Positions 11,570 through 14,614 of a stretch of 64,000 nt of DNA are shown here, in pieces. Within the stretch, counting starts at the first letter, position 1, and every line of letters starts with the position of its first letter. This stretch comes from an uncultured Bacilli bacterium (GTDB taxonomy: Bacteria; Bacillota_I; Bacilli_A; RF39; UBA660), in NCBI GenBank assembly GCA_944363595.1, contig CALVUN010000010.1, positions 6,852 through 70,851 of the forward strand. The letters run 5' to 3'. The position numbers were made by a program, and so were the translations under genes. The notes below the pieces were generated by a model. The model saw only the letters and a list, made by a program, of their open reading frames with translations. It was not told the origin of the DNA and ran no database searches.

Positions 11570-13651
11570 ATGAAAAAAAGATTAATTATCCTCCAAAATG
11601 GTAGTCGTGAATGTGGTAGTGCAGCCTTATTATCAATTATAAGATATTATGGTGGTAACATATCATTAAACAAACTTGTCGAATTAACCAACACATCCCC
11701 CAAAGGGACCAATTTTTATAACCTAAAAGAGGCAAGTTTAAAAGTAGGATTATATGCCAAATCATATTATGTCTCTGATTACAAACAATTATCTCAAATA
11801 AATACACCATTTATAAGCCAAGTCATAAATAATAATTTTTATCACTTTGTAGTGGTATATAAAGTAGATAATAAAGTCCTAATAATGGATCCCGCAATGG
11901 GAGTTCGCAACTTAAATATTAATGAATTTCAAAAAATATGGACTGGTTACATTATGGTTTTTGAACCCATAAAAAAATTGCCATATTATGAAGATAAAAA
12001 AATACTAAATAACATTATAAAACAGACCATATTAAATAATTACAAAATAATTTTAAATATCCTGTTTTTATCCATTGTTTTCACAATATTAACTTGCATA
12101 TATTCTTTTTACTTTAAAGTAATAATTGATAACGTAATAAATACCAATATCAATAATTTAAAAACAATCACCATAATTTTCATAATAATAATTATTATAA
12201 AAACAATCACAGACTTCTTCCGTAACCAAATGCTAATCTATCTAAATCAAAAACTAGATCTGACCATTTTCATGAGCACAATCAAAAAAATTCTTTTACT
12301 TCCTTATAGTTATTATAAAAATAGACCAACTGGTGACATCATATCTCGCATTGGCGATCTATCCTCGGTTAAATCAATCATAAGCAAGATTATTCTATCA
12401 GTTTTCCTTGATTTAATAACATCCATAATCGGTGCTATCATATTGTATCAAATAAGCCAAAAACTATTTTTTATCACAATAATAATAATAATGTCCTACA
12501 TCATAATATTGTTACTTTTTAATCCAATAATAAAAAAACTAACAATCAAAAACCAAGAAAATAACGCTTTAATCAGTGCCAATTTAGTTGAAACAATAAA
12601 TAACTACGAAACAATAAAAAACTTAGCCATCGAAAAAAATAGTAGTATTAAAATTGAAAAAAAATATTTAGAAGGATTAAGTAGTGCTCTACATTATGAT
12701 ATTACTAGTAATGCCGAATTATTTTTTAAAAACATAGTCAACTATATAGGTATCATAGTAATAATTTACTTAGGAACAATAGAAGTAATTAATAACAATT
12801 TAACAATAGGAAGTCTCATCACGTATAACTCATTACTAATATACTTTTTAAATCCCATTCGTAATATTATCGATTTAAGTAAAGAATACCATTACTCACT
12901 AAATGCAATTAAACGTGCAAATGACCTATTAGAAATAGATGAAGAGCCTATCAGTGAATCAAAAAAATTATCAAGCCCAAGTAAAATAACCTTTAAAAAT
13001 GCCAATTTCAGTTTTAATAACCAAAAAAACATCCTAAAAAACTTAAATCTGACCATAAACTCTTACGAAAAAATTCTAATTATAGGACCTTCCGGTTCAG
13101 GCAAAAGTACAATTCTAAAATTAATTTATAAGTTTTTCAATATAGCAAGAGATGAATTATTTTTAGATGAAATAGATATAAATGATTACCCCTTAAGTAA
13201 CATTCGTAATACTATTACTTATATATCACAGCAAGAATTTCTCTTTAACGATACCTTAAGAAATAATATAATTCTAAATCGAAACATATCCGAAGAACAC
13301 TTTTTAGAATTAACATCTCTTTTATACATAGATGAAATTGTTAAAGATACTTTTCTAGGTTATGATACACCCATCGAAGAAGGAGGAGGTAACATATCAG
13401 GAGGTCAACGGCAAAGGATTATTTTAGCAAGAGCCTTATTAAAAAATAGCCATATTATCATGATTGATGAAGGATTAAGTGAAATGGATATCAATTTAGA
13501 ACGCAAAATATTAAAAAATATCTTTGCCGTCTATAAAAAATGCACTTTTCTAATCGTCTCACATCGCCTTGACAATATGGACCTGTACGATAAAGTTATC
13601 AAATTAGAAAACGGTCAAATAAAAGATATCTTATCCCGTCGTATTATATAA
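11570..13651 (+). CDS. bacteriocin-processing ABC transporter with N-terminal C39 peptidase domain (LcnC/ComA-type)
   Basis: C39 catalytic triad (ECGSAA Cys, HFVVVY His, DPA Asp), six transmembrane helices, Walker A GPSGSGKST and the ABC signature LSGGQRQRI. Confidence 0.9.
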   Translation: MKKRLIILQNGSRECGSAALLSIIRYYGGNISLNKLVELTNTSPKGTNFYNLKEASLKVGLYAKSYYVSDYKQLSQINTPFISQVINNNFYHFVVVYKVDNKVLIMDPAMGVRNLNINEFQKIWTGYIMVFEPIKKLPYYEDKKILNNIIKQTILNNYKIILNILFLSIVFTILTCIYSFYFKVIIDNVINTNINNLKTITIIFIIIIIIKTITDFFRNQMLIYLNQKLDLTIFMSTIKKILLLPYSYYKNRPTGDIISRIGDLSSVKSIISKIILSVFLDLITSIIGAIILYQISQKLFFITIIIIMSYIIILLLFNPIIKKLTIKNQENNALISANLVETINNYETIKNLAIEKNSSIKIEKKYLEGLSSALHYDITSNAELFFKNIVNYIGIIVIIYLGTIEVINNNLTIGSLITYNSLLIYFLNPIRNIIDLSKEYHYSLNAIKRANDLLEIDEEPISESKKLSSPSKITFKNANFSFNNQKNILKNLNLTINSYEKILIIGPSGSGKSTILKLIYKFFNIARDELFLDEIDINDYPLSNIRNTITYISQQEFLFNDTLRNNIILNRNISEEHFLELTSLLYIDEIVKDTFLGYDTPIEEGGGNISGGQRQRIILARALLKNSHIIMIDEGLSEMDINLERKILKNIFAVYKKCTFLIVSHRLDNMDLYDKVIKLENGQIKDILSRRII

Positions 13652-13698
13652 ATAAACAAATTAAGTTTAAGTAGGAAATAAAATAAGGAGCTAGTCAA

Positions 13699-14139
13699 AT
13701 GGAAGTATTTAATCAATTAGAAAGCTATATAATCTTAACCAAACAATATTCATCATACTATGTCCTTTGTACCTTGTACATATTAATTATAAATATAATT
13801 ATCATTGTATTATGCATATTAGATTATCAAACCTACATAATAACTAAAGCTACTGTAGAAATAAAAAATAACGAGACTCATATTATCGTTCCCGTTAAAA
13901 TAGAGGATACCAAGTATTACACTAGCAATAATTATTTATTAATAGAAAATAAAAAATATAAATATTCCGTCCAAAAAATAAATCCAGAATTGTCTATTGA
14001 TGCAACAGGTGAAAACTATCAACTATTAACTATCAAAATAAATTTACCTGAACAATATCGAATTAATAACTATTTAATAACCATAAAAATTCCCAAAGAA
14101 AAAAGAAAAATAATTAATTACATACTAGAATATTTCTAA
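13699..14139 (+). CDS. short membrane-anchored accessory protein (possible truncated HlyD/LcnD-like secretion accessory or immunity factor)
   Basis: 146 aa with an N-terminal transmembrane segment. It sits between the exporter and the peptides, but is far shorter than canonical roughly 450-aa accessory proteins. Confidence 0.4.
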   Translation: MEVFNQLESYIILTKQYSSYYVLCTLYILIINIIIIVLCILDYQTYIITKATVEIKNNETHIIVPVKIEDTKYYTSNNYLLIENKKYKYSVQKINPELSIDATGENYQLLTIKINLPEQYRINNYLITIKIPKEKRKIINYILEYF

Positions 14140-14151
14140 AAGGAGGCAGAA

Positions 14152-14322
14152 ATGGAACAAATAACCAATTTACAAATGCAAAAAATAGAAGGTGGGGGAA
14201 GTGGTCTTGTTTGGGGAATTGCCGCTGGAGTAGGAGCATTAATTGTTCTAATATCAGGAATTATTGATGGATACCTAAATCCTATCCCATGTAACAATAG
14301 TCCGAAAGAAGGTGAAGTATGA
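14152..14322 (+). CDS. bacteriocin precursor peptide A with a double-glycine leader (56 aa)
   Basis: Not in the ORF track. Ribosome-binding site AGGAGG, leader MEQITNLQMQKIEGG (hydrophobics at -4, -7, -12), core GSGLVWGIAAGVGALIVLISGIIDGYLNPIPCNNSPKEGEV with GxxxG motifs and a single Cys. Confidence 0.8.
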   Translation: MEQITNLQMQKIEGGGSGLVWGIAAGVGALIVLISGIIDGYLNPIPCNNSPKEGEV

Positions 14323-14489
14323 TAATATTAAAAAATGACGAAATGACCAAAGTAACGGGAGGAAGTATCATTAGTGCATCATTACTAAGTGCAATTAATA
14401 AGACAGTTCAGATCATTTTTGAATTAGGCCAATCACTTGGTAGTTCTATTAGACGTTTAGTAATAGGTGAAAAATGCCCAACGATGTAA
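14319..14489 (+). CDS. bacteriocin precursor peptide B with a double-glycine leader (56 aa)
   Basis: Not in the ORF track. Its ATG overlaps the stop of peptide A (ATGA). Leader MIILKNDEMTKVTGG, core SIISASLLSAINKTVQIIFELGQSLGSSIRRLVIGEKCPTM with a single Cys. Confidence 0.75.
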   Translation: MIILKNDEMTKVTGGSIISASLLSAINKTVQIIFELGQSLGSSIRRLVIGEKCPTM

Positions 14490-14614
14490 GAAAACAAAAA
14501 CATACTATCATTCCCATTATAATAATAATACTCCTACTACCAATAATAAATATTCTAATCGAAGTCATCTTCGATTTAGGACGTTATCTTGGTACTTTAG
14601 CAAGACTAATATAA
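14474..14614 (+). CDS. putative bacteriocin immunity peptide (46 aa, single transmembrane segment)
   Basis: Ribosome-binding site AGGTGA 5 nt upstream. Sequence MPNDVRKQKHTIIPIIIIILLLPIINILIEVIFDLGRYLGTLARLI. It overlaps the end of peptide B in another frame. Not in the ORF track. Confidence 0.4.
   Translation: MPNDVRKQKHTIIPIIIIILLLPIINILIEVIFDLGRYLGTLARLI

What the first reader, a model, noticed from the sequence alone, without database searches (positions are those of the whole stretch)
11570..14614. Complete unannotated two-peptide double-glycine-leader bacteriocin locus
A C39-peptidase ABC exporter (11570-13651) and a short accessory protein (13699-14139) are followed by three small ORFs absent from the ORF track.

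- Peptide A (14152-14322): leader MEQITNLQMQKIEGG, a GxxxG-rich 41-aa core, and one Cys.
- Peptide B (14319-14489): its start overlaps the stop of peptide A (ATGA). Leader MIILKNDEMTKVTGG, a 41-aa amphipathic core, and one Cys.
- A 46-aa single-transmembrane peptide (14474-14614) with its own AGGTGA ribosome-binding site, typical of an immunity protein.

Both leaders fit the class II double-glycine consensus, with hydrophobic residues at -4, -7 and -12. The C39 Cys/His/Asp triad is intact, so processing is plausible. The arrangement is characteristic of class IIb two-peptide bacteriocins.

Neither core sequence resembles any bacteriocin I can recall, so the product is plausibly novel. The single Cys in each peptide could form an inter-peptide disulfide. 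Unusually, the locus sits among housekeeping genes (obg upstream, def convergent downstream) rather than in an obvious genomic island.
Basis: partly seen in the sequence, partly recalled or inferred. Interest (0 to 1): 0.8.

Follow-up and report, generated by a model that had tools for sequence, protein, structure and literature searches.

The report
Conserved two-peptide bacteriocin export cassette
A five-gene operon in an uncultured, spore-forming gut bacterium encodes a processing exporter, a miniature adaptor protein, two secreted partner peptides and a small membrane peptide copied from one of them; it looks like a previously undescribed family of two-peptide bacteriocin, but killing activity is untested.

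Summary
At 11570-14614 (+) there is one operon: a peptidase-containing ABC exporter (catalytic Q9/C15/H92/D107 intact), a 146-aa accessory protein, two 56-aa double-glycine-leader peptides (A and B, ATGA overlap) and a 46-aa membrane peptide (ORF3). A hairpin shared with convergent def ends it.

All three small ORFs are under purifying selection (synonymous/non-synonymous changes against an 86%-identical relative: 24/5, 25/8, 17/1). In each of the 28 other loci holding a complete or near-complete pair, A sits directly upstream of B; wherever upstream sequence was available, the exporter and short accessory gene precede them. All come from uncultured gut Bacilli, in varying housekeeping contexts. 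None was found on plasmids or phages, and no kinase/regulator genes lie nearby.

One GxxxG motif is invariant in each peptide, and each has one near-invariant C-terminal Cys. The cores match no Pfam or NCBIfam family.

ORF3 is a leaderless, membrane-anchored paralogue of peptide B's core.

Verdict: a new family of the class IIb kind. Antimicrobial activity, synergy, immunity and the inter-peptide disulfide are inferred only.

The parts
11488..11569 (+). obg-exporter intergenic region: a short hairpin plus T-run after obg, a likely promoter, and a strong AAGGAGG ribosome-binding site
   Evidence: Sequence. The region is 88% conserved against L001. The promoter is inferred and not mapped; the promoter scan was no better than shuffles.
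11570..13651 (+). Peptidase-containing ABC transporter (PCAT), 693 aa: C39 peptidase, six-helix transmembrane domain and ATPase
   Evidence: Pfam PF03412, PF00664 and PF00005. PDB PCAT1 4ry2 E 2e-112 and ComA 8hf4 E 3e-106, full length. Q9, C15, H92 and D107; Walker A at 506, signature at 609, Walker B at 629. TIGR01193 scores 441.5 bits, below its 523.85 cutoff.
13699..14139 (+). 146-aa accessory protein: N-terminal transmembrane helix plus one beta-barrel domain of the membrane-fusion-protein type
14152..14322 (+). Peptide A precursor, 56 aa: 15-aa GG leader plus a 41-aa hydrophobic core with the invariant motif G-x-x-x-G-Y-x-N-P-x-x-C
   Evidence: Family alignment. 92 clusters in the 5.8-billion-protein collection, all unnamed. 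24 synonymous against 5 non-synonymous changes versus L001. Core net charge -2, GRAVY 0.72.
14319..14489 (+). Peptide B precursor, 56 aa: 15-aa GG leader plus a 41-aa amphipathic cationic core with the invariant motif G-x-x-x-G-S-x-I-R-R...C
   Evidence: Alignments. 908 clusters at E<=0.01. 471 representatives at 50% identity. 25 synonymous against 8 non-synonymous changes. AF2 predicts a helix at 20-48.
14474..14614 (+). ORF3, 46 aa: basic N-terminus, transmembrane helix, then a GxxxG segment homologous to peptide B's core. It has no GG leader and no Cys. Candidate immunity peptide.
   Evidence: 17 synonymous against 1 non-synonymous change versus L001. hhalign against B gives probability 90% and 85%, E 1.4e-6 and 6.5e-6. 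Real score 28.5 against column shuffles of 8.6 +/- 1.9, maximum 14.8. No similarity to A. Present in window, L001, L004, L009, L026, L037 and L038.
14615..14657 (.). Hairpin between ORF3 and convergent def; likely a bidirectional terminator
   Evidence: RNA fold -15.8 kcal/mol, z -5.6 against shuffles.

Best explanation
This is a self-contained operon for making and exporting an unmodified two-peptide (class IIb-like) bacteriocin.

Proposed mechanism:
1. Peptides A and B are translated as precursors with 15-residue double-glycine leaders.
2. The C39 domain of the ABC exporter cuts after Gly-Gly, and the transporter, helped by the membrane-anchored mini adaptor, releases the two roughly 41-aa cores.
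3. Outside the cell, A (a hydrophobic transmembrane helix) and B (a cationic amphipathic helix) insert together into a target membrane. They pack through their invariant GxxxG motifs, possibly locked by a disulfide between their single C-terminal cysteines, and permeabilise related bacteria.
4. ORF3 has no leader, so it stays in the producer's membrane. It is a truncated, membrane-anchored copy of B's helix and GxxxG segment, and most likely protects the producer by occupying B's binding partner (A or the receptor).

Shown by sequence analysis: gene content and order, intact catalytic residues, the leaders, purifying selection, strict A-B co-occurrence, the conserved motifs, the adaptor fold and the ORF3-B homology.

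Inferred: export, antimicrobial activity, synergy, the disulfide and the immunity mechanism.
For: - ORFs and overlaps.
- PCAT architecture and catalytic residues.
- Leader consensus read directly from the sequence, plus weak leader-driven matches to class IIb families.
- All three small ORFs under purifying selection.
- Exactly one A and one B, adjacent and in that order, in each of the 28 other loci; exporter and mini-adaptor precede them wherever upstream sequence was available.
- Invariant GxxxG in A (G36, G40) and in B (G37 invariant; G41 invariant among the 12 genome loci and >=90% across 117 sequences), plus a near-invariant Cys. GxxxG is the hallmark of all characterised class IIb peptides (PMC2850506).
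- B is predicted to be one long helix, cationic and amphipathic. A has a 19-residue window of mean hydropathy 2.36.
- The accessory protein has a membrane-fusion-protein fold.
- ORF3-B homology.
- The only lineage whose B lacks Cys also has an A that lacks Cys, and it is abundant (24-33 member sequences).
- No modification enzymes, kinases or regulators are conserved next to the cassette.
Against: - No activity data exist. The host is uncultured.
- Peptide A of this window is net anionic (-2), unlike most bacteriocins.
- The peptides are about as conserved as housekeeping proteins (91% and 85% identity, against 86% for the exporter), with no sign of diversifying selection.
- The cassette is chromosomal, sits among housekeeping genes, and was not found on plasmids, phages or viral contigs. 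This is less typical of bacteriocin loci.
- Most related loci (22 of 29, window included) have no ORF3 and no other obvious immunity gene next to B.
- No curated bacteriocin family is matched above threshold.
Confidence: 0.7

Rival explanations
1. The two peptides are exported signalling pheromones of the ComC/BlpC/plantaricin A type, processed by the same kind of exporter, rather than toxins.
For: ComA, the pheromone exporter, is the second-best structural relative of the ABC protein. Some family members give weak hits to induction-factor and pheromone models (EntF family, VP1; E about 0.1). High conservation and a chromosomal housekeeping context would suit a regulatory system.
Against: No histidine kinase or response regulator lies within about 10 kb in the window or in the seven annotated related loci. 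The mature peptides are 32-41 aa, hydrophobic or amphipathic membrane helices with GxxxG motifs, not short pheromones. Two different peptides are always co-encoded. The weak pheromone hits are leader-driven, because core-only queries match nothing.
Confidence: 0.07
2. A and B are two independent one-peptide (class IId) bacteriocins that share an exporter, with no synergy and no heterodimer.
For: Multi-bacteriocin loci with several GG-leader peptides behind one exporter are common (general knowledge). L002 and L003 carry a third GG-leader ORF.
Against: Strict one-to-one A-then-B pairing in all 28 other loci across exporters only about 50% identical. Translational coupling (ATGA overlap). Complementary chemistry, a neutral transmembrane helix with a cationic amphipathic helix. 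An invariant GxxxG in each, and joint loss of the two cysteines.
Confidence: 0.1
3. The exported peptide pair has a non-antibiotic role in the producer's own envelope or life cycle, for example a membrane or spore-associated factor or a host-directed peptide. On this view ORF3 is a membrane partner rather than an immunity protein.
For: Conservation at housekeeping level and vertical-looking inheritance next to def in one clade. No immunity gene in most loci. The host is a spore-former with sporulation genes nearby: CotE, SpoIIIAH, GerM and a YjcZ-like protein.
Against: No precedent known to me for such a role of GG-leader peptide pairs. All anatomical features coincide with class IIb bacteriocins. 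The neighbouring genes differ between lineages, so no functional link to a particular housekeeping pathway is conserved.
Confidence: 0.1

Closest known systems
Class IIb two-peptide bacteriocins with all genes in one operon, e.g. lactococcin G (review PMC2850506)
   Same: Two different adjacent peptides of about 30-40 aa with 15-30-residue GG leaders, GxxxG motifs in both, a dedicated C39 ABC exporter, an accessory protein and a small membrane protein in the immunity position, all in one operon.
   Different: - No detectable core homology to any curated class IIb family.
- Gene order is exporter-accessory-A-B-ORF3.
- The accessory protein is only 146 aa. From memory, LcnD/ComB-type accessory proteins are about 450 aa.
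- Each peptide keeps one conserved C-terminal Cys.
- The candidate immunity peptide is a paralogue of peptide B.
- The host is an uncultured spore-forming gut Bacilli lineage, not a lactic acid bacterium.
PCAT1 (Clostridium thermocellum, PDB 4ry2) and ComA (Streptococcus, PDB 8hf4) peptidase-containing ABC transporters
   Same: Full-length alignment (E 2e-112 and 3e-106), the same three-domain architecture and conserved catalytic Cys/His/Asp.
   Different: PCAT1's known cargo is a single, longer peptide, and ComA exports a pheromone with the large ComB adaptor (from memory). Here the cargo is a peptide pair and the adaptor is a one-domain protein. NCBIfam TIGR01193 scores below its trusted cutoff.
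Membrane fusion proteins / periplasmic adaptors (HlyD, MacA, Spr0693, EmrA, BesA)
   Different: No sequence-level match to HlyD-type Pfam families. At about 100 extracytoplasmic residues it lacks the alpha-hairpin and, as far as the model shows, the lipoyl domain.
Lactobin A/cerein 7B (TIGR03949) and lactococcin G-beta/enterocin 1071B (NF038034) families
   Same: Weak sub-threshold hits for some family members (best E 8e-6 and 4e-4).
   Different: The hits disappear when the leader is removed. The window peptides themselves score E 0.28 or nothing. These are not members.

Membership tests
Class IIb (two-peptide) bacteriocin | [quoted passage not shown] | tested here: met
   ATGA overlap in the window. 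A directly upstream of B in all 28 other loci.
Class IIb (two-peptide) bacteriocin | 15-30-residue double-glycine leader, cleaved by a dedicated C39 ABC transporter | tested here: met
   15-residue leaders with hydrophobic -4, -7, -12 and -15. An adjacent PCAT with intact Q9, C15, H92 and D107. Cleavage itself was not tested.
Class IIb (two-peptide) bacteriocin | GxxxG (or GxxxG-like) helix-helix motif in both peptides | tested here: met
   Invariant G36xxxG40 in A. In B, G37 is invariant and G41 is invariant among the 12 genome loci and >=90% across 117 sequences. Criterion taken from PMC2850506.
Class IIb (two-peptide) bacteriocin | Immunity gene in the same operon | tested here: inconclusive
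   ORF3 occupies the position and is a conserved membrane peptide. It is absent from 22 of the 29 loci (window included), and its function is untested.
Class IIb (two-peptide) bacteriocin | [quoted passage not shown] | not testable with these tools
   Needs synthetic or expressed peptides and indicator strains.
Peptide cleavage/export ABC transporter (NCBIfam TIGR01193; Pfam C39 + ABC_membrane + ABC_tran) | Three-domain architecture with a catalytic C39 domain, and a score above the curated cutoff | tested here: inconclusive
   All three Pfam domains score above their gathering thresholds. TIGR01193 scores 441.5 bits against a cutoff of 523.85. Full-length PCAT1 alignment.
Bacteriocin_IIc (PF10439), lactobin A/cerein 7B (TIGR03949), lactococcin G alpha/beta (NF038035, NF038034) | Score above the family cutoff, extending into the mature core | tested here: not met
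   PF10439 scores 16 bits against 27.1, on the leader only. NF038034 scores 11.4 bits against 37. Core-only queries match nothing.
ComC/BlpC-type peptide pheromone system | A short mature peptide with a cognate histidine kinase and response regulator encoded nearby | tested here: not met
   No kinase or regulator domains in window genes from 730 to 24808 or in L026-L028, L037-L039 and L041. Cores are 32-41 aa.
HlyD/membrane-fusion-protein accessory (LcnD/ComB type) | N-terminal membrane anchor plus adaptor domains (beta-barrel, lipoyl, alpha-hairpin), with a sequence match to HlyD families | tested here: inconclusive
   The anchor and the beta-barrel fold are met. There is no HlyD sequence match and too few residues for a hairpin.

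The most novel reading that the evidence does not exclude
The mature product is a covalent heterodimer: A and B joined by a disulfide between their single conserved C-terminal cysteines. I know of no precedent for this among class II bacteriocins. Producer immunity is provided by ORF3, a leaderless, membrane-anchored, Cys-less duplicate of peptide B. ORF3 would act as a dominant-negative mimic by pairing with A, or by blocking B's site, through the retained GxxxG segment. On this reading the immunity gene evolved from the toxin gene itself.
Probability: 0.25. Interest if true: 0.7.

Novelty: new member of a known kind. Interest (0 to 1): 0.5.

Why it matters
- **A large, unnamed peptide family.** At least 471 clusters at 50% identity for peptide B sit in gut metagenomes, in hosts that cannot yet be cultured. 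This is a source of narrow-spectrum membrane-active peptides and a marker of competition in this lineage.
- **A testable origin for immunity.** The homology between ORF3 and peptide B suggests how bacteriocin immunity can arise, by duplicating the toxin and anchoring the copy in the membrane.
- **A minimal export adaptor.** The one-domain adaptor suggests a minimal accessory component for PCAT exporters in single-membrane bacteria.
- **A possible covalent heterodimer.** The paired cysteines raise the possibility of a disulfide-linked heterodimeric bacteriocin.
- **Limits.** None of this changes what is known about bacteriocin export as such. Large genome-mining surveys (e.g. PMC12648112) probably already list such precursors as hypothetical.

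Tried and rejected
- **Apparent natural A-B fusion proteins (P0367, P0450).** I first considered these as Rosetta-stone evidence. Translating the DNA shows a stop codon between A and B, so the fusions are artefacts of gene calling with an alternative genetic code.
- **Genetic code.** TGA ends only 2 of 57 ORFs, but long ORFs are unbroken in table 11, so code 11 holds. If TGA were read as Trp, peptide A would gain only one residue.
- **CPBP/Rce1-like protease (9040-9747) as an Abi-type immunity gene.** It is not in the operon and no homologue appears near the cassette in the related loci examined.
- **obg as a conserved anchor.** It is not conserved. Only def adjacency is shared, and only within one clade.
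- **RF39/Mollicutes affiliation.** Some database names ('Tenericutes') suggested it. I dropped it because the window encodes CotE, SpoIIIAH, GerM and a YjcZ-like protein.
- **Mobile-element origin.** No plasmid, phage or viral-contig hits and no GC anomaly.
- **Searches that failed or gave little.** The afdb50 fold library was unavailable. The promoter scan was uninformative.
- **Literature.** Searches for the motifs, for inter-peptide disulfides in class IIb and for Mollicutes class IIb loci found nothing relevant. The supplements of the IIBacFinder paper are not held.
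Full report
**1. Observation**

The operon on the + strand contains:

- a 693-aa ABC protein, 11570-13651
- a 146-aa protein with one N-terminal hydrophobic helix, 13699-14139
- a 56-aa ORF, 14152-14322 (peptide A)
- a second 56-aa ORF, 14319-14489 (peptide B), whose ATG overlaps A's TGA
- a 46-aa ORF, 14474-14614 (ORF3), overlapping the end of B

A has a strong AAGGAGG ribosome-binding site. B and ORF3 share the same AGGTGA-N3-ATG arrangement. A hairpin at 14615-14657 (-15.8 kcal/mol, z -5.6) separates the operon from convergent def. obg lies upstream and ends with its own small hairpin and T-run.

**2. The exporter**

Pfam finds Peptidase_C39, ABC_membrane and ABC_tran above threshold. 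The protein aligns over its full length with PCAT1 (4ry2, E 2e-112) and ComA (8hf4, E 3e-106). The catalytic Cys, His and Asp of PCAT1 align with C15, H92 and D107, and Q9, Walker A, the signature motif and Walker B are present. It scores below the trusted cutoff of NCBIfam TIGR01193 (441.5 against 523.85 bits). It is therefore a divergent but apparently competent peptidase-containing ABC transporter.

**3. The small ORFs are real genes**

An 86%-identical relative of the exporter (L001) carries the same five genes. Codon-by-codon comparison gives:

| ORF | Synonymous differences | Non-synonymous differences |
|---|---|---|
| Peptide A | 24 | 5 |
| Peptide B | 25 | 8 |
| ORF3, C-terminal 33 codons | 17 | 1 |

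In ORF3, 15 of the 20 base differences fall at third codon positions. This is purifying selection on all three reading frames.

**4. A conserved cassette**

Related loci came from a genome scan with the exporter, a metagenome scan and contig look-ups. This gave 28 other loci holding a complete or near-complete peptide pair (one B is cut by a contig end), plus a fragment, L042, that is cut inside peptide A.

HMM scans of all six frames found exactly one A and one B in each locus, always adjacent and always in the order A then B. Wherever upstream sequence was available, the exporter and a 128-149-aa accessory gene precede them.

The flanking genes differ between lineages: def, a PilB-like ATPase, rpsU/yqeY, a Mur ligase, DHH-family genes and others. 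Only def adjacency is shared, within the window's clade. No kinase or regulator and no modification enzyme is associated. Peptide B has no hit in plasmid, phage or viral-contig collections.

The host records are labelled uncultured Bacilli, Clostridium sp. CAG:762 or Tenericutes. The window itself encodes CotE, SpoIIIAH, GerM and a YjcZ-like protein, so the organism is a low-GC (about 28%) spore-former.

**5. The peptide families**

Profile searches found 92 clusters for A and 908 for B in 5.8 billion proteins. None carries a functional name, and practically none a Pfam domain. An exhaustive HMMER search found 471 representatives of B at 50% identity.

- **A cores** (median 32 aa) are a hydrophobic helix ending in an invariant GxxxG followed by Y-x-N/R-P-x-x-C.
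- **B cores** (median 40 aa, median charge +3) carry an invariant G-x-x-x-G-S-x-I-R-R and a Cys 4-8 residues from the C-terminus.

AlphaFold predicts B as one helix spanning residues 20-48 of the precursor.

Full precursors give only sub-threshold hits to class IIb families. These hits vanish when the leader is removed. Text searches for the motifs in 8 million papers found nothing relevant. A 2025 gut-wide class II mining study exists (PMC12648112) but does not discuss this family in its text, and its tables are not held.

**6. The cysteines**

Of the 120 listed B clusters, 119 have exactly one Cys. The single exception (P0202, the L002/L003 type, 33 member sequences) pairs with the A variant that ends before its Cys (P0060 and P0070, 24 and 8 members).

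Among 26 distinct A-B pairs in loci, 24 have both Cys, one has neither, and the one discordant case is a B cut by a contig end. This fits the two cysteines working together, for instance as an inter-peptide disulfide. It is one evolutionary event, so the support is weak.

**7. The accessory protein**

No Pfam, NCBIfam or PDB sequence match was found. An AlphaFold model (pLDDT 84) shows a transmembrane helix followed by a six-strand beta domain with short helices.

**8. ORF3**

Its C-terminal half (LLLPIINILIEVIFDLGRYLGTLARLI) aligns in register with B's core (SLLSAINKTVQIIFELGQSLGSSIRRL).

- hhalign of ORF3 alignments against B alignments gives probability 90% and 85%, with E 1.4e-6 and 6.5e-6.
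- The real score of 28.5 compares with 8.6 +/- 1.9 (maximum 14.8) for 100 column-shuffled controls.
- There is no similarity to A.

ORF3 lacks the GG leader, the IRR...C tail and the Cys. It has a basic N-terminus and a fully hydrophobic helix (mean hydropathy 3.08).

Homologues occur in the window's clade and, after direct inspection, in two more distant loci, L037 and L038. That is 7 of 29 loci, window included. The exact ORF3 sequence is not in the public protein collection, whereas A and B are.

I infer that ORF3 is a retained, membrane-anchored mimic of B that confers self-protection. This is the least certain step.

**9. Interpretation**

All testable defining features of class IIb bacteriocins, as set out in PMC2850506, are met. 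Activity and synergy cannot be tested here.

The pheromone alternative fails its defining test, because no sensor or regulator is present. The two remaining rivals, independent single-peptide bacteriocins and a non-antibiotic role, are disfavoured by the strict pairing, the complementary chemistry and the shared motifs. Neither is excluded.

Points that sit less comfortably with a bacteriocin reading:
- the anionic A core in this window
- conservation at housekeeping level
- a chromosomal housekeeping context
- the absence of any recognisable immunity gene in most related loci

**10. Verdict**

It is a new family within a known kind of system. It has three features worth experimental follow-up: the single-domain adaptor, the paired cysteines and the toxin-derived candidate immunity peptide.

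Noticed in passing
window 19436-24808: A cluster of sporulation-related genes: YetF-like (19436-20092), CotE (20148-20717), SpoIIIAH-like (22049-22561) and GerM/Germane (23846-24808). They show that this 28%-GC uncultured 'Bacilli' organism is a spore-former, which argues against the Tenericutes/Mollicutes-type labels attached to some related records.
   Followed up: partly
window 15276-15443 (-): A 55-aa Gly/Tyr-rich ORF (MYYYGGYNGGYSTCGCGGGY...) with a C-terminal hydrophobic helix and a weak YjcZ_2 match (E 4e-4, 20.3 bits against a cutoff of 21). It is 91% conserved in L001, next to def.
   Followed up: partly
window 9040-10021: A CPBP/Rce1-like intramembrane protease (9040-9747). This family sometimes serves as bacteriocin immunity. 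It is followed by an overlapping 106-aa Asn-rich ORF with a hydrophobic N-terminal region and a C-terminal hydrophobic helix (9701-10021). No homologue appears near the cassette in the related loci examined, so probably unrelated.
   Followed up: partly
L002 8471-8569 and L003 (same coordinates): The one lineage whose A and B both lack the conserved Cys carries an extra 32-aa GG-leader ORF (MINITNEELKKISGGCNWRRIVVLLRYLCRFI, two Cys) upstream of A.
   Followed up: no
L040 112-420; proteins P0367, P0450: Public gene calls that look like A-B fusion proteins are artefacts of alternative genetic codes. In table 11 a stop separates A and B. Several database entries for A also carry a spurious C-terminal Trp from reading TGA as sense.
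   Followed up: yes
window 56437-56626 (+) and 25412-25485 (-): A T-box leader (99 bits) upstream of the gene at 56883, and a single tRNA gene on the minus strand.
   Followed up: no
L007 8937-10334; L027 10391-11803; L039 6260-7678: In one lineage a 465-472-aa protein with no Pfam hit on record for the two annotated copies (the L007 ORF's N-terminus looks hydrophobic) follows the cassette. In L027 it is separated from the cassette by an inserted SpaA pilin and sortase pair. It could be a lineage-specific immunity or receptor candidate, or simply a neighbour.
   Followed up: no
window 11488-11569 versus L001 1-100: The obg-exporter intergenic region is 88% identical between the two genomes. 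The conserved part includes a short repeated ACCTC-like element just upstream of the ribosome-binding site. The contig record for L001 starts here, so obg adjacency there could not be confirmed.
   Followed up: partly
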